This document shows positions 25,897 to 37,424 of a stretch of DNA of 64,000 nucleotides, one piece after another. Location of the stretch: contig OZ244723.1 of NCBI GenBank assembly GCA_965219325.1, positions 1,039,963 to 1,103,962 on the forward strand, written 5' to 3'. This DNA comes from Dehalococcoidia bacterium (GTDB lineage Bacteria; Chloroflexota; Dehalococcoidia; Lucifugimonadales; UBA2962). Position 1 is the stretch's first letter; each line of letters starts with the position of its first letter. The translations under genes were made by a program, and so were the position numbers. Below the pieces are notes generated by a model. The model was not told the origin of the DNA. It was given only the letters and a program-made list of their open reading frames with translations, and made no database searches.

Positions 25897-27336
25897 CTAT
25901 TCTACCGAGAGTACCCTGAGGAGATTGGTACCTCCAGGCACGCCTATGGGCAGGCCGGCAACCAGCACCACCTGGGTGCCGGCCGCGACGCCCGGGATCT
26001 TGGTCGCCTCCTGCTGCACGCGGGCGAAGAAGCCGTCGATATTGCGGATCGGCTCCGTAGTCACGGGGAGCACCCCCCAGCTCAGGCTCAGGGCGCGCTG
26101 CGTGCGATCGGAAGGCGTCAGGGCCAGTATCGGCGCCTTCGGCCTGTACTTTGAGACCCTTCCCGCCGTGCTGCCCGACTCGGTAAAGGCAACTATCAAC
26201 CCTGCGCCGATCTGCCGCGCAGTCTGGCAAGCGTTGTAGGCGATGGCGTCGTCGGTCTGGCTCTCTAGGTGCTGGCGCTTTTCGACCAGCATCGCCTCGT
26301 ATGGAAGAGCCGCTTCCGCCTCGAGGGCCACCTCGGCCATGACCCTGACCGCCTCGACCGCGTATATGCCGATCGCGGTCTCGCCCGAGAGCATGATGGC
26401 ATCGGAGCCGTCGAACACGGCATTGGCAACATCCGTCACCTCAGCGCGGGTGGGAGATGGCGAGTTGATCATCGATTCGAGCATCTGCGTGGCCGTGATC
26501 ACCGTCTTGCCGGCCGCGTTGCAGGAGCGTATCAGTCGCTTCTGTATCACCGGGACCTTTGCCAGAGGAACCTCCACCCCCAGGTCGCCCCGTGCCACCA
26601 TGATTCCGTCGCTCGCCTCGAGTATCGCCTCAAATTGGGAGACCGCCTCGGAGGTCTCTATCTTGGAAACGATCAGCGGCGAGGTGCCCCTTTTGGCAAG
26701 GATCTGTTTCGCCGCCTCGACATCGGCCGAAGCTGTAACGCCGGACAGGGCCACAAAGTCCGCGCGTTGGTCCGCGGCGAACTCCAAGGCCCGCCGGGCC
26801 TTAAGGTCTGGAAAGGGCTGCGATGGAGCGACTCCAAGGAGGCTGACGCCCCTTCCCTCCGTCACAAGGCCCAGAGTCAGGGCCTCGCAAAGCACGTCCG
26901 GCCCCTCGACCCGAATGACCCTGAGCCGGACGATGCCGTCGGATATCAGCACGAAATTGCCGGGACTGGCGTCCCTGTGAATCCCGGGCGGCGAGATGCA
27001 CAGCAGGTCCTGTTCCCCAACGACCTCCCTGCTGGTCAGGGCGAGCTGGTCTCCGGGCTTGATGGCGATCCCACCCGTCCTGATCGTACCGACCCTGTAC
27101 TTGGGACCCGGGACATCCACCATTATTGCGATGGGCAGGCTCAAATCCCTGGCGACCGAGCGCACCGTCTGGACGGCCCTTTTGTGCTCATCGGGGGAGC
27201 CGTGGGCCAGGTTGAGCCGCGTCACGCTCGCGCCGGCCCTGACCAGCGCAGTGACGTCGGCATGCGACTCGACCGCCGGCCCGAGAGTGCAGACGATCTT
27301 GGTTCTCGGGATTACGTGGTTGCGATAGGTCGTCAC
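25897..27336 (-). CDS. pyk: pyruvate kinase
   Basis: RTKIVCTLGPA, NLAHGS, MVARGDLGVE.P, and ITATQMLESM. Confidence 0.9.
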   Translation of the reverse strand: MTTYRNHVIPRTKIVCTLGPAVESHADVTALVRAGASVTRLNLAHGSPDEHKRAVQTVRSVARDLSLPIAIMVDVPGPKYRVGTIRTGGIAIKPGDQLALTSREVVGEQDLLCISPPGIHRDASPGNFVLISDGIVRLRVIRVEGPDVLCEALTLGLVTEGRGVSLLGVAPSQPFPDLKARRALEFAADQRADFVALSGVTASADVEAAKQILAKRGTSPLIVSKIETSEAVSQFEAILEASDGIMVARGDLGVEVPLAKVPVIQKRLIRSCNAAGKTVITATQMLESMINSPSPTRAEVTDVANAVFDGSDAIMLSGETAIGIYAVEAVRVMAEVALEAEAALPYEAMLVEKRQHLESQTDDAIAYNACQTARQIGAGLIVAFTESGSTAGRVSKYRPKAPILALTPSDRTQRALSLSWGVLPVTTEPIRNIDGFFARVQQEATKIPGVAAGTQVVLVAGLPIGVPGGTNLLRVLSVE

Positions 27337-27438: not shown

Positions 27439-27444
27439 TAGAAT
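27439..27444 (+). promoter_or_regulatory. -10-like TAGAAT 9 nt upstream of the ATG of the Zn-ribbon gene (possible leaderless mRNA)
   Basis: cgtTTAGAATggccgccgATG. No good -35 and no Shine-Dalgarno are visible. Confidence 0.3.
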
Positions 27445-27452
27445 GGCCGCCG

Positions 27453-28154
27453 ATGGAAGATCTGACCCGCCTCAACGACCTACAGGGAGTCGATCTGCAC
27501 CTGCGGTCGTCGCGGGAGGAACTGGCCGATGTGAAGCGAAGGCTCTCGGACGAGGGCGACCTGCCAAAGATCCGGAGTCAGCTCGAGAGGATCGAGACGG
27601 TCCTGGAGGATCGCTCGACGAAGGGACGGTCGGCGGAGAGGGAAATGGAGCGCCTTACCGGGGTCGTCGGCGATCTGGAGCGACGTCTCTACGACGGATC
27701 GGTGACCAACCAGCGGGAGTTTGACGCTCTGACTGACCAGCGAGATCACGCGGCCGCCGAGAGAGGCCAGGCCGAGGACGGGTTGCTCGAGCTGATGGTC
27801 GAGATGGATGACCTGCAGGGCGCCAGGGAGCGCCATGTGGTGGCCATCGAGAGGATGACCAGGCTCAGGGCGGACGAGGTGTCGAGGCTAAAGGACCGCG
27901 AGTCTGAATTGTCCCGGGATATCGTCGACCTTGAGGAGGCCAGGCTGCGCGATGCGGCGGATCTGCCGGCCGGGCTGCTGGCACGATATGAGGCCCTGAA
28001 AAAGAACCGAGGCGGTCGAGCGGTCGCCTCCCTCGACGGTCGGGTCTGCGGGGTCTGCAGGGTGGAGCTCCCGACGGGGGACCTGGCCAGGGCGAGGGCC
28101 GGCCAAGAGCTGGTGCAGTGCAACAGTTGCAGAAGGATCATCTTCACCGGGTGA
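27453..28154 (+). CDS. coiled-coil Zn-ribbon protein (COG1579/DUF164-like)
   Basis: Long heptad-like N-terminal region, then the C-terminal CGVCRVELP....... CNSCRRIIF double CxxC. Confidence 0.7.
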   Translation: MEDLTRLNDLQGVDLHLRSSREELADVKRRLSDEGDLPKIRSQLERIETVLEDRSTKGRSAEREMERLTGVVGDLERRLYDGSVTNQREFDALTDQRDHAAAERGQAEDGLLELMVEMDDLQGARERHVVAIERMTRLRADEVSRLKDRESELSRDIVDLEEARLRDAADLPAGLLARYEALKKNRGGRAVASLDGRVCGVCRVELPTGDLARARAGQELVQCNSCRRIIFTG

Positions 28155-28182: not shown

Positions 28183-29517
28183 ATGAGGGCCCTCGGCTAC
28201 TGCAGGCCGGATGCCTCGGACATCCAAGCAGAGAGCTTCGATGCCCTGTTTGGTGAGTTCTGCGATGCCAACCTCCACCAGCCGCTCCAGACCTTCGTGG
28301 AGCTGGACGGTGGCGCCGAGCAGTTTGCATCCATGCTTGAGTTCATCCGGCGCTCGGGCAGCGAGTTCCTCGCGGTCGTACCTGACGCCAGGCACCTCGG
28401 GCGGGACCTGGAGGCCGTGGCGCGCTCGCTGGTTGACATAGAGAGCACCGGCTCGACTGTGACCTGTATGGACGACGAGTTCCCGGACCCGGTCCAGAAC
28501 GCCTTCCAGAGGCTCGGGATAAAGGGGGTCTCCCGGACGCGGAGCCTGCGTGTGAGCGAGGCGATGAGGCGGAGGGCATCGCAGGGCAAGGCCCTGGGCC
28601 GGCCCCTGTTCGGCTATCGCATAGGAGATGACGGAACGCTCCAGGTTGTGCCCGAGCAGGCAGCCGTGGTCGAGCTGATCTACCGCCTCTACACATCTGA
28701 CGGACTCGGCTACCGTCTGATTGTCCAGCATCTGAACGAAAGGGGAATCACCACCCGCCGCGGGTCTCCTTGGAACGTGGTCACGGTTAGGGACGTGCTA
28801 CGGAATCCCGTCTATACCGGGACCTACAACAGGTTCGGCATGCGGCTCCCCAGGGTCCACGAGGCGATCATCGCGCCGGCGACATACAGGCAGGCCCAGG
28901 ACCGGATGCGCGCCCGCAGGCCGATCGGACGGGTATCGAGATCGGAGCCGTTTCTCCTCTCAGGGCTGGTGACCTGCGCCAGATGCGGCAACAACATGAT
29001 GGGGGTGACGCGGCGCCAAAAGTGGAAGCGCAAGGATGGTCGCAGAAGCTCGGGCGTTTACCGTTACTACCAGTGCCAGTCCCGGCAGAACCAGGGCCGC
29101 TGCGAGTACCTTACCTGGCGGGCGTCCCTGCTCGAATCCACCGTCCTCAGCCAGCTCAAGGACAAGATCGCCCGGTCTCTGCTCGAGGCCGAGTTGGACG
29201 CCGAAAAGAGGAGAGAACGCCTCGCGCAGGTGGGCCGGCGCAGGGGAGAGCGCGTCGAGGCGGCAGAGCGGAGGCTGGTGAACGCACTCAGGCGAGTGGC
29301 GAGGGCGGAGATACCCCTTTATCTGTTAGAGGACTACCTGAGGGAGCTGGACTCCCTGAGGCGACAGGCCGCGCTGGGCGACGAGGCCGGACCTTCAGGG
29401 GCACTTGCCCGCCTGCAGGCCGAACCGGCACCGGGCTTTGACGAATTGCGGTCGCTGATTGAGGACAATGTAGAGCGCATCTTGGTACGGGACGAGGGCG
29501 TCGAAGTTCACATATAG
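28183..29517 (+). CDS. large serine recombinase family protein with non-canonical N-terminal catalytic motif
   Basis: Recombinase domain (GRPLFGYRI...VVELIYRLY...G...I...LN.RGI.T..G..W....V...L.NP.Y.G), Zn ribbon (LSGLVTCARCGNNM...YRYYQC......RC) and a C-terminal coiled coil. The N-terminus reads MRALGYCRPDASDIQ where Y.R.S(T/S)..Q is expected. Confidence 0.75.
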   Translation: MRALGYCRPDASDIQAESFDALFGEFCDANLHQPLQTFVELDGGAEQFASMLEFIRRSGSEFLAVVPDARHLGRDLEAVARSLVDIESTGSTVTCMDDEFPDPVQNAFQRLGIKGVSRTRSLRVSEAMRRRASQGKALGRPLFGYRIGDDGTLQVVPEQAAVVELIYRLYTSDGLGYRLIVQHLNERGITTRRGSPWNVVTVRDVLRNPVYTGTYNRFGMRLPRVHEAIIAPATYRQAQDRMRARRPIGRVSRSEPFLLSGLVTCARCGNNMMGVTRRQKWKRKDGRRSSGVYRYYQCQSRQNQGRCEYLTWRASLLESTVLSQLKDKIARSLLEAELDAEKRRERLAQVGRRRGERVEAAERRLVNALRRVARAEIPLYLLEDYLRELDSLRRQAALGDEAGPSGALARLQAEPAPGFDELRSLIEDNVERILVRDEGVEVHI

Positions 29518-29659
29518 GCTCCTTTTCCCCGGCGCAATCCCCGGCCGCCTCTCATCTCAACCCGCAGACCCGGAAGGTCGCTCGGCCCGGCGCCGCTTCC
29601 GGCCGGCACTCGGCCCCTGCCCGTTAACGATTTCGGCGGTCCTGAGCACTGCGGGGGTC

Positions 29660-29668
29660 TGTTAGAAT
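29660..29668 (+). promoter_or_regulatory. extended -10 (TGtTAGAAT) upstream of rnpB
   Basis: ctgTTAGAATcgagatgg precedes the predicted RNase P RNA 5' end by about 10 nt. No convincing -35. Confidence 0.4.
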
Positions 29669-29678
29669 CGAGATGGGC

Positions 29679-30118
29679 GCAAGATGGCCGGGCGGCCGCC
29701 CTCCGCAGGTCGGAGGGAGGAAAGTCCGAGCTCCATTCGGGCGGGATGCCCGCTAACGGCGGGGCGGGGTGACCCGACGGAAAGTGCCACAGAAACACAC
29801 CGCCCCGGTCCTCCTCGTTTGAGTAGGGTGGGGTAAGGGTGAAATGGTGAGGTAAGAGCTCACCGCCCCGGCGGAGACGCCGGGGGCAGGGCAAACCCCA
29901 TCCGGAGCAAGGCCTAGCAGGGGACACCGGTTGCCCCCGTGTTCGGGAGCGATCGGGGTAAGAGGGTGCCCGGACCTTCCCCGGGTTGGCCGCTCGACCC
30001 CGGCGGCAACGTCGGGGCTAGATAGATGGCCGCCGCGCCGTTTGCCCGCGGGAAGAAGCCACTGGCGTAAACCGCAAGCAACCGGCGTACAGAACTCGGC
30101 TTACAGGCCGTCTTGCGC
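29679..30118 (+). ncRNA. rnpB: RNase P RNA, bacterial type A
   Basis: Universal blocks GGAGGAAAGTCCGAGCTCC, ACAGAAACA, GGTAAGGGTGAAATGGTGAGGTAAGAGCTCACC, GGGCAAACCCCATCCGGAGCAAGGCC, AGATAGATGGCCGCC and ACAGAACTCGGCTTACAGGCC. P1 pairs GCAAGATGGCC (29679-) with GGCCGTCTTGC (-30116). Confidence 0.92.
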
Positions 30119-30188
30119 CCACAAAGCCCTCCCGATGACCCGCGAGGGTGAACGGGAGGGTGTCGGCGTGGTCAGCCCCCTCGCAACG

Positions 30189-30217
30189 TTGACCGGGCGA
30201 TACGCCGGCCTTAGAAT
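30189..30217 (+). promoter_or_regulatory. sigma70-type promoter for tRNA-Trp
   Basis: TTGACC (30189-30194), 17-nt spacer, TAGAAT (30212-30217), about 22 nt upstream of the tRNA. Confidence 0.6.
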
Positions 30218-30239: not shown

Positions 30240-30317
30240 AGGAGCGTAGCTCAGTCTGGTCAGAGCATCGGTCTCCAAAACCGAGGGTCGCGGGTTCGAA
30301 TCCTGCCGCTCCTGCCA
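30240..30317 (+). tRNA. tRNA-Trp (anticodon CCA), CCA-encoded
   Basis: AGGAGCG acceptor pairs with CGCTCCT. The anticodon loop is CTCCAAA, the T-arm is GCGGG-TTCGAAT-CCTGC, and the discriminator G is followed by CCA. Confidence 0.92.
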
Positions 30318-37173: not shown

Positions 37174-37260
37174 GCCGAGGTGGCGGAATTGGTAGACGCG
37201 CAGCGTTGAGGGCGCTGTGGCCGCAAGGCTGTGGGAGTTCGAGTCTCCCCCTCGGCACCA
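37174..37260 (+). tRNA. tRNA-Leu (anticodon GAG), long variable arm, CCA-encoded
   Basis: Acceptor GCCGAGG/CCTCGGC, anticodon stem-loop CAGCG-TTGAGGG-CGCTG, variable arm TGGCCGCAAGGCTGT and T-arm GGGAG-TTCGAGT-CTCCC. Confidence 0.9.
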
Positions 37261-37347
37261 GCCGACTCCCGATCGCCGTAGGCGGCTTGCCGGAGTCCGG
37301 AGCCGGAAAGGCCTCGTGGATTCCGCGACCGCCGGCCCGTCAGATGG

Positions 37348-37424
37348 GGCGCCGTAGCCAAGTGGACTAAGGCGGAGGTCTGCAAAACCTCTATTCGGCG
37401 GTTCGAATCCGCCCGGCGCCTCCA
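37348..37424 (+). tRNA. tRNA-Cys (anticodon GCA), CCA-encoded
   Basis: Acceptor GGCGCCG/CGGCGCC, anticodon stem-loop GAGGT-CTGCAAA-ACCTC and T-arm GGCGG-TTCGAAT-CCGCC. Confidence 0.9.

What the first reader, a model, noticed from the sequence alone, without database searches (positions are those of the whole stretch)
28183..29517. Lone large serine recombinase homolog with R-P-D in place of the R-x-S nucleophile motif, wedged between a Zn-ribbon gene and rnpB/tRNA-Trp
What the sequence shows. The central Recombinase domain, the Zn ribbon (CARCG...YYQC...RC) and the C-terminal coiled coil all look intact. The resolvase-type N-domain, however, starts MRALGYCRPDASDIQ. In every serine recombinase I know, the block is Y-x-R-x-S-(T/S)-x-x-Q, with the nucleophilic Ser two residues after the Arg. 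Here that position is Asp. The D.G.SG...RP block reads ELDGGAEQF, and the LDRL.R block reads PDARHLGR.

Context. The neighbours are housekeeping genes: pyk, a COG1579-like Zn-ribbon gene 28 nt upstream on the same strand, RNase P RNA, tRNA-Trp and an SDR. I see no phage or ICE cargo, and I did not notice a duplicated tRNA-Trp 3' end.

Interpretation (inference). This could be a domesticated, possibly catalytically dead recombinase reused as a DNA-binding or architectural factor. It could instead be a recombinase with a shifted nucleophile (Ser12 in PDAS). A third option is the last remnant of an element that once used the adjacent tRNA-Trp/rnpB locus.
Basis: partly seen in the sequence, partly recalled or inferred. 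Interest (0 to 1): 0.55.

Follow-up and report, generated by a model that had tools for sequence, protein, structure and literature searches.

The report
Domesticated serine-less recombinase gene pair
This gene is a DNA-recombinase look-alike that lost its cutting residues long ago; it is kept as a core chromosomal gene across Dehalococcoidia (Chloroflexota), always directly behind a zinc-ribbon coiled-coil gene, so the two most likely act together as a non-cutting nucleic-acid-binding pair whose role is not yet known.

Summary
ORF 28183-29517 (+), 444 aa, has intact Recombinase (PF07508) and Zn-ribbon (PF13408) domains, a coiled coil and a resolvase-like N-domain fold. It has no PF00239 match, no nucleophilic Ser, and no equivalents of the catalytic Arg68/Arg71.

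It is not a lone oddity. It belongs to a large family confined to Dehalococcoidia/SAR202/Chloroflexota, present in at least 180 species genomes. Three subfamilies were examined; a fourth was only glimpsed. All members seen lack a conserved nucleophile. Every domain is under purifying selection (dN/dS 0.05-0.22; N-domain 0.12).

In 80/80 related loci a CT398/HP0958-type (DUF164/COG1579) Zn-ribbon gene lies directly upstream on the same strand, usually 7 nt away. This pairing also holds in the divergent subfamilies, whose other neighbours differ. rnpB follows in 62/80 loci but has its own promoter, so that adjacency is lineage-specific.

I found no att repeats, no tRNA duplication, no element cargo and no defence-system match.

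Best reading: an ancient, domesticated, catalytically dead large serine recombinase that works as a nucleic-acid-binding partner of the DUF164 protein. DUF164 proteins have been predicted to dock on RNA polymerase. The target and the physiological role are inferred, not shown. No publication or curated family describes this protein.

The parts
25897..27336 (-). pyk (pyruvate kinase), the conserved divergent neighbour of the module in subfamilies A and B
   Evidence: PF00224 and PF02887. The same gene sits in the same position in L081 and L082-L085 and in most group-A loci.
27439..27444 (+). TAGAAT -10-like box 8 nt before the ATG of the Zn-ribbon gene; candidate promoter of the two-gene operon, giving a leaderless or near-leaderless mRNA (inferred)
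   Evidence: Sequence. The same box at the same distance is present in L001-L011.
27453..28154 (+). 233-aa coiled-coil and C4 Zn-ribbon protein of the DUF164/COG1579 (CT398/HP0958/MSMEG_4306) family; the obligate upstream partner
   Evidence: PF02591 at 39 bits (cut-off 29.1) and PF24481 at 25.2 bits. Present directly upstream on the same strand in 80/80 loci. The gap to the next gene is most often 7 nt.
28183..28602 (+). N-domain (residues 1-140): a resolvase-like fold with a degenerate active site. Asp10 sits at the nucleophile position, His71 at the gamma-delta Arg68 position and a variable residue at the Arg71 position. It carries its own invariant motifs.
   Evidence: AF2 topology. Foldseek matches to catalytic domains of Sin, gamma-delta and others. 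No PF00239 match. Column statistics. Alignments to gamma-delta and TnpX. dN/dS 0.12.
28603..28932 (+). Recombinase domain (RD, residues ~141-250), intact
   Evidence: PF07508 at E 2.7e-19 and in 101/101 homologs. Aligns to SPbeta and A118 integrases. dN/dS 0.05.
28933..29118 (+). Zinc-ribbon domain (ZD, residues ~251-312) with four invariant Cys and a near-invariant basic hairpin
   Evidence: PF13408 at E 1.5e-14. C265, C268, C298 and C307 are invariant. dN/dS 0.08.
29119..29517 (+). Coiled-coil motif and C-terminal beta strands (residues ~313-444), then the stop codon
   Evidence: AF2 helices 314-338, 340-373 and 379-397, and strands 432-443. Aligns to the A118 integrase C-terminal region. 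dN/dS 0.22.
29663..29668 (+). TAGAAT box (TGTTAGAAT, extended -10) 11 nt before the rnpB 5' end: rnpB's own promoter (inferred)
   Evidence: Sequence. A TAnAAT box lies 7-12 nt upstream of rnpB in 52/62 loci.
29680..30119 (+). rnpB (RNase P RNA, bacterial type A); a frequent but not obligatory downstream neighbour
   Evidence: RF00010 at 263.8 bits. Found downstream on the same strand in 62/80 loci.
30240..30317 (+). tRNA-Trp (CCA) with its own TTGACC-17-TAGAAT promoter-like site at 30189-30217; not part of the module
   Evidence: Present after rnpB in about 25/80 loci. No duplicated 3' end in the window.

Best explanation
The gene encodes an anciently domesticated, catalytically inactive large serine recombinase (a 'pseudo-LSR'). 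It is inherited vertically as a core chromosomal gene of Dehalococcoidia/SAR202 and forms a two-gene operon with the upstream DUF164/COG1579 (CT398/HP0958-type) coiled-coil Zn-ribbon gene.

Shown:
- It keeps the complete LSR architecture: a resolvase-like N-domain, the recombinase domain, the zinc-ribbon domain and the coiled coil.
- It has lost the nucleophilic Ser and the two catalytic Arg, and this loss is family-wide.
- Every domain is under purifying selection.
- The pairing with the DUF164 gene is invariant, including in subfamilies whose other neighbours differ.
- No trace of a mobile element is present.

Inferred:
- The protein no longer cuts or rejoins DNA.
- It uses its strongly conserved RD and ZD to bind a specific and probably conserved nucleic-acid target, most simply DNA, as LSR dimers do.
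- It uses its coiled coil and/or its re-purposed N-domain surface to bind the DUF164 partner. This would resemble the way LSR coiled coils bind recombination directionality factors.
- CT398-family proteins bind sigma-54/RNAP and have been predicted to dock on RNAP beta'. The pair would therefore act as a site-specific adaptor that brings RNA polymerase to, or holds it at, particular loci, or that bridges DNA without cleaving it.

The rnpB adjacency in this window is lineage-specific neighbourhood, not co-transcription.
For: Architecture.
- PF07508 and PF13408 match.
- The AF2 model has pLDDT 87 and an LSR topology.
- The top Foldseek hits are the SPbeta, Bxb1, A118 and PhiC31 integrases, followed by small-resolvase catalytic domains.

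Dead active site.
- No PF00239 match; only 41/101 homologs keep a weak one.
- Position 10, the gamma-delta Ser10 equivalent, is E/D/K/G.
- His71 occupies the Arg68 position and position 74, the Arg71 equivalent, is variable.
- 79/81 orthologs lack Y-x-R-x-S.
- Distant subfamilies B, C and D also lack a conserved Ser and both Arg.

Selection and inheritance.
- dN/dS is 0.12 (N-domain), 0.05 (RD), 0.08 (ZD) and 0.22 (CC).
- At least 180 species genomes carry a relative, and every source name is Dehalococcoidia, SAR202 or Chloroflexota.
- The N-domain occurs in a single architecture of 428-498 aa.

Pairing.
- The DUF164 gene is directly upstream in 80/80 loci, with a modal gap of 7 nt.
- The same pair is found in subfamily B next to pyk with pirin downstream, and in subfamily D next to yceD with RNase HII or HI downstream.
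- In Lucifugimonas the start codon abuts the partner's stop codon.

Not mobile.
- No inverted repeats, no tRNA duplication, no conserved non-coding motif, no PADLOC hit, and housekeeping flanks.

Partner biology.
- DUF164 proteins are linked to RpoN, and their genes show synteny with rpoD, rnhA and rnpB (PMC3372290).
- An AlphaFold-based study predicts beta' docking for the mycobacterial homolog (bioRxiv 10.64898/2026.07.15.738315).
- rnpB has its own promoter box in 52/62 loci.
Against: - No binding target was identified. A k-mer scan of 80 loci found no conserved non-coding site near the operon, so autoregulation at a conserved operator is not supported.
- No interaction between the two proteins was tested; co-folding was not possible with these tools.
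- The N-domain keeps a striking set of invariant residues, including C27, H32, C95 and the loop G115-V-S117-R-T-R120-S121. This would also fit a new enzymatic or ligand-binding function rather than a mere interaction surface.
- In part of subfamily D a Ser does sit at the canonical position (YFRESP).
- The RNAP-docking model for DUF164 proteins is itself only a prediction.
- Repeated adjacency to rnpB, rnhA and rnhB could point to RNA or RNA:DNA-hybrid biology instead.
Confidence: 0.55

Rival explanations
1. The pair acts on RNA or RNA:DNA hybrids. The pseudo-LSR would be a cofactor or assembly or regulatory factor for RNase P RNA, RNase H or primer/R-loop metabolism, and would bind structured RNA or hybrids through its RD and ZD rather than duplex DNA sites.
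For: rnpB lies immediately downstream in 62/80 group-A loci. RNase HII or RNase HI lies immediately downstream in group D, with a 4-nt overlap in L087. DUF164 genes in other phyla are followed by rnhA or rnpB and are linked to dnaG/rpoD (PMC3372290). HP0958 is reported in the literature to bind mRNA (from memory, not checked here). The RD and ZD are near-invariant, which fits a conserved housekeeping target.
Against: rnpB has its own promoter. It is missing from 18/80 group-A loci and from group B, where pirin or an acetyltransferase lies downstream. The rnhA/rnpB association also exists in phyla that have DUF164 but no pseudo-LSR, so it belongs to the partner rather than to this gene. All characterised RD and ZD domains bind duplex DNA (structures).
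Confidence: 0.17
2. It is still an active recombinase or nuclease that uses a relocated nucleophile (for example Ser117/Ser121 in the invariant G-V-S-R-T-R-S loop, or Cys27/Cys95) and performs a programmed chromosomal rearrangement.
For: S117 is invariant and R120 and S121 are 98-99% conserved, in a loop that replaces the N-terminal half of helix E. C27, H32 and C95 are invariant in 101 group-A sequences. The N-domain is under purifying selection. Some group-D members keep Ser at the canonical position.
Against: None of these residues is conserved across subfamilies B, C and D, which share the same gene pair. The Arg68/Arg71 equivalents are lost everywhere. There are no inverted or direct repeat sites around the locus and no conserved non-coding motif. 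Gene order is static across 80 genomes.
Confidence: 0.07
3. It is a decaying remnant or pseudogene of an integrative element that once inserted near tRNA-Trp/rnpB and has no present function.
For: LSR genes are normally element-borne. The gene sits next to a tRNA and rnpB, which are typical integration targets. In one genome the downstream slot holds IS copies and an integrase fragment (L081).
Against: dN/dS is 0.13 overall. The reading frame is intact at a conserved length of about 440-480 aa in hundreds of clusters. Synteny with the Zn-ribbon gene holds in 80/80 loci. Identity is about 50% across a whole bacterial class. There is no cargo, no att sites and no tRNA duplication.
Confidence: 0.03
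4. It is a purely architectural DNA-bridging or synapsis protein. Pseudo-LSR dimers would bind dispersed sites and synapse them through their coiled coils without cutting. The DUF164 protein would act like a directionality factor that switches bridging on or off. The function would lie in chromosome organisation rather than transcription.
For: The coiled-coil motif that mediates synapsis in LSRs is retained. The partner is a long coiled-coil hairpin with weak SMC-like matches. The two-gene layout resembles integrase-RDF pairs.
Against: No repeated candidate sites were found in the 13-kb loci. The helix-E region that forms the LSR dimer/tetramer interface is shortened and interrupted in the model. 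SMC-like hits are generic for coiled coils.
Confidence: 0.13

Closest known systems
Large serine recombinases / serine integrases (SPbeta SprA, A118/LI Int, Bxb1 Int, PhiC31 Int)
   Same: The domain order and fold are the same: resolvase-like N-domain, helix E, recombinase domain, Zn-ribbon domain with an embedded coiled coil, and C-terminal strands. These are the best Foldseek and HMM matches.
   Different: There is no nucleophilic Ser and no Arg68/Arg71 equivalents, and helix E is short and interrupted. It is not on a mobile element and has no att sites. It is vertically inherited and under purifying selection across a bacterial class. Its DNA-binding domains are near-invariant, whereas those of integrases diverge with their att sites.
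Integrase plus recombination directionality factor gene pairs (e.g. PhiC31 Int-gp3, SPbeta SprA-SprB)
   Same: An LSR-type protein is encoded next to a second protein, and in real systems that second protein binds the LSR coiled-coil/ZD region. SPbeta integrase-RDF complexes are among the structural matches.
   Different: The partner here is a 233-aa DUF164/COG1579 protein that is widespread in bacteria as a housekeeping gene, not a phage RDF. It lies upstream and appears translationally coupled. No recombination needs directing.
DUF164/COG1579 proteins: CT398 (CdsZ), HP0958 (FlgZ), MSMEG_4306/ML1638
   Same: The upstream gene has the same coiled-coil hairpin plus C4 Zn ribbon. It shows the same kind of neighbourhoods, with rnpB and RNase H downstream (PMC3372290).
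   Different: None of the described family members is paired with a recombinase-like gene. The NCBIfam CdsZ score of 44 is far below the equivalog cut-off of 275. The family's molecular function is still unknown; RpoN stabilisation and predicted RNAP beta' docking are the only leads.
Tn3/gamma-delta resolvase acting as a repressor and binding accessory sites II/III without catalysis
   Same: This is a precedent for a serine recombinase scaffold serving as a site-specific, non-cleaving DNA-binding or architectural protein (established knowledge, from memory; structures 1gdt, 5cy1 and 2r0q appear).
   Different: Those enzymes keep a working active site and are transposon-borne. Here the active site is gone and the gene is chromosomal.
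Other nuclease-dead domesticated mobile-element proteins (e.g. TnpB-derived TldR repressors; eukaryotic domesticated transposases)
   Same: The evolutionary logic is the same: loss of catalytic residues, retention of the nucleic-acid-binding scaffold, fixation in host genomes, and a new partner or regulatory role (from memory, not tested here).
   Different: The protein superfamily is different. I found no domesticated serine recombinase of this kind in the searchable literature.

Membership tests
Large serine recombinase (as a protein fold/architecture) | Resolvase-type alpha/beta N-terminal domain | tested here: met
   AF2 topology b1-aA-b2-aB-b3-aC-b4. Foldseek matches to catalytic-domain-only structures 3guv, 3pkz, 5c32 and 2rsl, with TM about 0.55.
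Large serine recombinase (as a protein fold/architecture) | Recombinase domain (PF07508), Zn-ribbon domain (PF13408, 4 Cys) and coiled coil | tested here: met
   E 2.7e-19 and 1.5e-14. Both domains are found in 101/101 homologs. The four Cys are invariant. Coiled-coil helices span residues 314-397.
Large serine recombinase (as an enzyme) | Sequence match to the Resolvase catalytic-domain model PF00239 | tested here: not met
   No match at E<=1 for this protein. Only 41/101 homologs have a weak match. The N-domain profile has no significant PDB sequence hit.
Large serine recombinase (as an enzyme) | Nucleophilic Ser in Y-x-R-x-S-T-x-x-Q | tested here: not met
   Asp10 in this protein. Position 10 is E/D/K/G in the family. 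The motif is absent in 79/81 orthologs and is not conserved in subfamilies B-D.
Large serine recombinase (as an enzyme) | Catalytic arginines (gamma-delta Arg8, Arg68, Arg71) | tested here: not met
   Arg8 is kept in 78% of sequences. The Arg68 position is His71 (91%) and the Arg71 position is variable. Both Arg are also lost in group D.
Large serine recombinase (as an enzyme) | Cognate att/res sites and a mobile or invertible DNA segment | tested here: not met
   No flanking inverted repeats, no duplicated tRNA end, no conserved non-coding motif in 80 loci, and static housekeeping synteny.
Large serine recombinase (as an enzyme) | DNA cleavage and strand exchange activity | not testable with these tools
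   This needs biochemistry: a covalent-intermediate assay or a recombination assay.
Developmental excisionases / cassette recombinases (NCBIfam XisF, CcrA/B/C) | Score above the equivalog cut-off | tested here: not met
   Scores of 55-68 bits against cut-offs of 375-900, and the matches cover only the RD/ZD region.
DUF164/COG1579 (CT398/HP0958) family, for the partner gene 27453-28154 | C-terminal C4 Zn ribbon (PF02591) preceded by a coiled-coil hairpin | tested here: met
   PF02591 at 39 bits against a cut-off of 29.1. PF24481 CT398_CC at 25.2 bits, just under the cut-off of 27 here but recorded for the orthologs in L081 and L084-L087.
DUF164/COG1579 (CT398/HP0958) family, for the partner gene 27453-28154 | Binding to sigma-54/RNAP | not testable with these tools
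   Only literature evidence for homologs is available.
Known anti-phage defence systems (PADLOC) | Match of either protein to a defence-system model | tested here: not met
   No family at E<=0.01 for either protein.

The most novel reading that the evidence does not exclude
The DUF164/CT398-type protein and the serine-less LSR form a dedicated two-protein machine. In this reading, a recombinase scaffold has been exapted as the sequence-specific DNA-recognition subunit that positions an RNAP-docking coiled-coil protein, or bridges DNA, at defined chromosomal sites. This would be the first domesticated large serine recombinase to serve as a core transcription or chromosome factor. It would also give the first mechanistic handle on the widespread, functionally obscure DUF164/COG1579 family. 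The invariant, newly evolved N-domain motifs (C27/H32-Q33, PDAxHLGxDLE, FPDPLQN, GVSRTRS) would be the interface or a ligand site of this machine.
Probability: 0.3. Interest if true: 0.8.

Novelty: new variant of a known kind. Interest (0 to 1): 0.66.

Why it matters
Large serine recombinases are known only as enzymes of phages, ICEs and developmental excision elements, and they are heavily mined as genome-engineering tools. A class-wide, vertically inherited, serine-less LSR shows that this scaffold can be exapted for a non-catalytic host function.

Three practical consequences follow.
- Genome annotators call these genes 'recombinase family protein' or 'site-specific DNA recombinase', so LSR-mining and mobilome pipelines will pick them up as false positives in thousands of Chloroflexota genomes.
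- The invariant pairing gives a concrete, testable partner for the DUF164/COG1579 (CT398/HP0958) family, whose molecular role has been open since the 2000s.
- The family occurs in SAR202 and other Dehalococcoidia, which are abundant and hard to culture. One cultured carrier exists, Ca. Lucifugimonas marina, and its gene is currently mis-annotated with a truncated N-domain. Experiments are therefore feasible.

Tried and rejected
- Ser12 as a shifted nucleophile. Rejected: the position is variable.
- Partly conserved Ser15 as the nucleophile. Rejected: it aligns with the canonical helix-capping S-L-x-x-Q motif, 7 residues after Arg8 as in gamma-delta resolvase, and it is Gln in this protein.
- Invariant Ser117/Ser121 or Cys27/Cys95 as a new catalytic centre. 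Not excluded for group A, but these residues are not conserved in subfamilies B-D, which share the same gene pair.
- Mobile-element remnant. Rejected on synteny, selection and the absence of att sites or cargo.
- Anti-phage defence system. No PADLOC match.
- Co-transcription or a functional unit with rnpB. Weakened: rnpB has its own extended -10 box in 52/62 loci and is absent from 18/80 loci and from other subfamilies.
- A conserved operator or att-like site near the operon. Inverted-repeat search and a 10-mer conservation scan over 80 loci found only rnpB and the gene's own coding sequence.
- Sequence-profile alignment of the N-domain to solved resolvases. No significant hit; only a marginal TnpX match at E 0.7, used solely to place the PDAxHLGxD block.
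- Literature searches for serine-less or domesticated serine recombinases, and for PF07508/PF13408. Nothing relevant.
- Residue-level structural superposition on gamma-delta or LI integrase. Not possible: model coordinates are not exposed, and Foldseek returns scores only.
Full report
**1. The observation**

The ORF at 28183-29517 (+) is real and encodes 444 aa beginning MRALGYCRPDASDIQ. Pfam finds the Recombinase domain (PF07508, residues 157-245, E 2.7e-19) and the recombinase Zn-ribbon (PF13408, residues 258-326, E 1.5e-14). It finds no Resolvase catalytic-domain match (PF00239) even at E<=1. NCBIfam gives only far-sub-threshold matches to XisF and CcrA/B/C, and these cover the RD/ZD region only.

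The gene 28 nt upstream on the same strand (27453-28154) is a 233-aa coiled-coil protein with a C4 Zn ribbon. It matches PF02591 above the cut-off and PF24481 CT398_CC just below it. rnpB (29680-30119) and tRNA-Trp (30240-30317) follow. The other neighbours are pyruvate kinase, a Na/Ca exchanger, a polyprenyl synthase, an SDR and an amidase. Base composition is flat across the region.

**2. It is a family, not a lone oddity**

A search of 5.8 billion proteins returned more than 515 relatives. The best 120 are all 393-461 aa long (most about 440-460) and 50-93% identical, and most lack a PF00239 match.

In an alignment of 101 of them, the stretch where the nucleophile should lie, just after M-R-A-I-G-Y-F-R, is variable and rich in indels. 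Position 10, the gamma-delta resolvase Ser10 equivalent, is E/D/K/G. Arg8 is kept in only 78% of sequences. The Ser found at position 15 in 65% of members sits 7 residues after Arg8, followed by Leu. That is the canonical helix-capping S-L-x-x-Q, not the nucleophile.

HMM alignments to gamma-delta resolvase and to the TnpX catalytic domain place the family block P-D-A-x-H-L-G-x-D on the canonical D-R-L-G-R-D. His71 (91% conserved) replaces Arg68, and a variable residue replaces Arg71. Among 81 orthologs taken from genomes, 79 have no Y-x-R-x-S at all.

The N-domain instead has its own invariant residues:
- F23, C27, H32 and Q33;
- P67...H71-L-G-x-D75-L-E77...R81;
- C95;
- P101-D-P-L-Q105-N106;
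- the loop G115-V-S117-R-T-R120-S121.

**3. Structure**

An AlphaFold2 model built with the 101-sequence alignment is confident (mean pLDDT 87). It shows a resolvase-like beta-alpha-beta N-domain, then the recombinase domain, the zinc ribbon, a long coiled-coil hairpin and C-terminal strands. The region corresponding to helix E is split into a short helix (103-110), a low-confidence loop (111-121, the invariant GVSRTRS block) and a 12-residue helix (122-133).

Foldseek against the PDB puts full-length serine integrases first: SPbeta at E about 1e-19, then Bxb1, A118 and PhiC31. Small-resolvase catalytic domains follow (Sin, gamma-delta, Tn3, TM about 0.55). The fold is that of a complete LSR, but the chemistry is gone.

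By sequence profile alone, the N-domain no longer finds any solved resolvase significantly.

**4. Evolutionary behaviour**

A scan of one genome per species (GTDB) found a relative in 180 genomes. The 80 best are all Dehalococcoidia, SAR202 or Chloroflexota MAGs, at 46-92% identity.

In those 80 loci:
- The Zn-ribbon gene is directly upstream on the same strand in 80/80, most often 7 nt away.
- rnpB is downstream on the same strand in 62/80.
- tRNA-Trp follows rnpB in about 25.
- Where rnpB is absent, a housekeeping gene (pyrD-like) follows.
- Upstream, pyk, and often cysS, is conserved and divergently oriented.

Nei-Gojobori dN/dS among the five closest sequences is 0.12 for the N-domain, 0.05 for RD, 0.08 for ZD and 0.22 for the coiled coil and C-terminus. 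The 'dead' domain is therefore itself constrained.

An exhaustive phmmer search with the N-domain over 1.84 billion cluster representatives found 106 clusters. All full-length members are 428-498 aa, so the N-domain occurs in one architecture only.

**5. The pair is the constant**

The most distant N-domain relatives (26-35% identity) also start MRA[VI]GY and lack R-x-S. They fall into further subfamilies.

Subfamily B has 336 clusters. It includes the cultured SAR202 Ca. Lucifugimonas marina and a MAG labelled Dehalococcoides mccartyi. It has the same layout, pyk(-) | 233-aa CT398-like gene -> LSR-like gene, but pirin or an acetyltransferase lies downstream.

Subfamily D has at least 1447 clusters, all with Dehalococcoidia or Chloroflexi names, and PF00239 is still detectable in it. 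It sits in a different neighbourhood: yceD(-) | CT398_CC/Zn_ribbon_9 gene -> LSR-like gene with a 3-nt gap -> RNase HII or RNase HI. In subfamily D the canonical position carries Ser in some members (YFRESP) but V, A, T, P or G in others, and both Arg equivalents are lost.

Across three different genomic contexts, the only invariant neighbour is therefore the DUF164-type gene. In Lucifugimonas the true ORF (479 aa) starts with a TTG that abuts the partner's stop codon. The public 401-aa annotation cuts off the N-domain.

**6. No mobile-element features**

- No inverted repeats flank the gene.
- The tRNA-Trp 3' end is not duplicated in the window.
- The window holds a single copy of each gene.
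- Neither protein matches a defence-system model.
- A 10-mer conservation scan across 80 loci recovers only rnpB and the gene's own coding sequence, so there is no conserved att-like or operator-like non-coding motif nearby.
- rnpB carries its own extended -10 box (TGnTAnAAT) 7-12 nt before its 5' end in 52/62 loci, including TGTTAGAAT at 29660-29668 here. The rnpB adjacency is therefore neighbourhood, not an operon.
- The two-gene operon has a TAGAAT box 8 nt before the Zn-ribbon gene's ATG in this clade, which suggests a leaderless mRNA.

**7. What is known about the partner**

DUF164/COG1579 proteins (H. pylori HP0958/FlgZ, C. trachomatis CT398/CdsZ, M. smegmatis MSMEG_4306) are widespread, and their mechanism is unknown.
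- HP0958 protects RpoN from turnover.
- The genes are syntenic with NIF3, rpoD/dnaG, rnhA and, in Borrelia, rnpB (PMC3372290; PMC8469502).
- A 2026 preprint predicts that the mycobacterial homolog ML1638 and CT398 dock by their Zn ribbon on the RNAP beta' shelf/jaw, and reach the sigma-binding region with the coiled-coil tip (10.64898/2026.07.15.738315).

The rnpB and RNase H neighbourhoods seen here therefore belong to the DUF164 gene's general context. In Dehalococcoidia an LSR gene appears to have been inserted between DUF164 and its usual downstream neighbour and then fixed (inference).

**8. Most likely mechanism**

Shown: a complete LSR scaffold with a family-wide loss of the nucleophile and catalytic arginines; purifying selection on every domain; class-wide vertical inheritance; an invariant, tightly spaced pairing with a DUF164 gene; and no element features.

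Inferred: the protein does not recombine DNA. It uses its near-invariant RD and ZD to recognise a specific and probably conserved nucleic-acid target. Through its coiled coil and/or its re-purposed N-domain surface it works with the DUF164 protein, in the way LSR coiled coils engage directionality factors. Given the RNAP link of DUF164 proteins, the pair most plausibly positions or modulates RNA polymerase at particular sites, or bridges DNA without cutting it.

I give this composite explanation 0.55. The 'domesticated and inactive for canonical serine recombination' part alone I would put at about 0.85. The RNAP-adaptor detail I would put at about 0.3.

Rivals:
- An RNA or RNA:DNA-hybrid-directed role tied to RNase P or RNase H (0.17).
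- A purely architectural DNA-synapsing role (0.13).
- A still-active enzyme with a relocated nucleophile (0.07).
- A decaying remnant (0.03).

**9. Comparison with known systems, and novelty**

In fold and architecture the protein is a large serine recombinase. As an enzyme it fails the defining tests: the Ser nucleophile, the Arg pair, PF00239, and att sites. It should therefore not be filed as a recombinase or integrase.

It works most like a non-catalytic DNA-binding derivative. The nearest precedents are resolvase bound at accessory sites or acting as a repressor, and nuclease-dead domesticated transposon proteins. Both comparisons are from memory.

I found no paper and no curated family that describes a serine-less, chromosomally fixed LSR or its pairing with DUF164. 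Public annotations call it 'recombinase family protein' or 'site-specific DNA recombinase'.

I rate it a new variant of a known kind, with interest 0.66. It would surprise specialists in serine recombinases. It offers a concrete handle on the long-unexplained DUF164 family, and it matters for LSR mining and mobilome annotation. Its actual function, however, remains inferred.

Noticed in passing
L083:4767-6206 (Ca. Lucifugimonas marina CP046147.1): The public gene call is 401 aa and starts 235 nt after the Zn-ribbon gene. The real ORF is 479 aa, begins with TTG directly after the partner's stop codon, and restores the MRAVGFH... N-domain. A whole group of 401-aa database entries (P0314-P0318, P0324, P0326, P0332) probably shares this truncation.
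   Followed up: partly
window 27439-27444, 29663-29668, 30189-30217: Three TAGAAT -10-like boxes precede the Zn-ribbon gene, rnpB and tRNA-Trp. The first is 8 nt before the ATG, implying a leaderless or near-leaderless mRNA. The second is 11 nt before rnpB. The third is part of TTGACC-17-TAGAAT. The box upstream of rnpB is conserved in 52/62 related loci.
   Followed up: partly
L086:6412-7350 and L087:6410-6829: In subfamily D the gene directly downstream of the recombinase-like gene is RNase HII or RNase HI, with a 4-nt overlap in L087. This echoes the rnhA and rnpB genes found downstream of DUF164 genes in other phyla.
   Followed up: no
L081:7991-12078: In a 5.45-Mb genome the slot downstream of the pair, where rnpB sits in this window, holds a Phage_integrase fragment and two DDE_Tnp_1 IS copies. 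The Na_Ca_ex-cysS-pyk-Zn-ribbon-recombinase-like order upstream is unchanged.
   Followed up: no
P0005 (84% identical homolog), residues ~229-262: A garbled, frameshift-like stretch interrupts an otherwise near-identical sequence. It is most likely a MAG assembly or indel error rather than biology.
   Followed up: no
L082 (GCA_017114025.1, labelled Dehalococcoides mccartyi): The gene context (DUF58, DUF4129, pyk, CT398-like gene, recombinase-like gene, pirin) is the same as in the SAR202 isolate Lucifugimonas. The species label of this assembly looks doubtful.
   Followed up: no
window 29508-29927 (-) and 30127-30160: A 139-aa ORF on the minus strand overlaps rnpB and is almost certainly spurious. 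A 15-bp imperfect hairpin (CCCTCCCGATGACCC / GGGTGAACGGGAGGG) without a T-tract follows rnpB and may mark its 3' end or a processing site.
   Followed up: no
window 37174-37424; L005:12475-12746: A tRNA-Leu(GAG) and tRNA-Cys(GCA) pair lies about 7 kb downstream. It recurs at about 4.4 kb in a 67%-identical relative, which shows that synteny extends well beyond the module in this clade.
   Followed up: no
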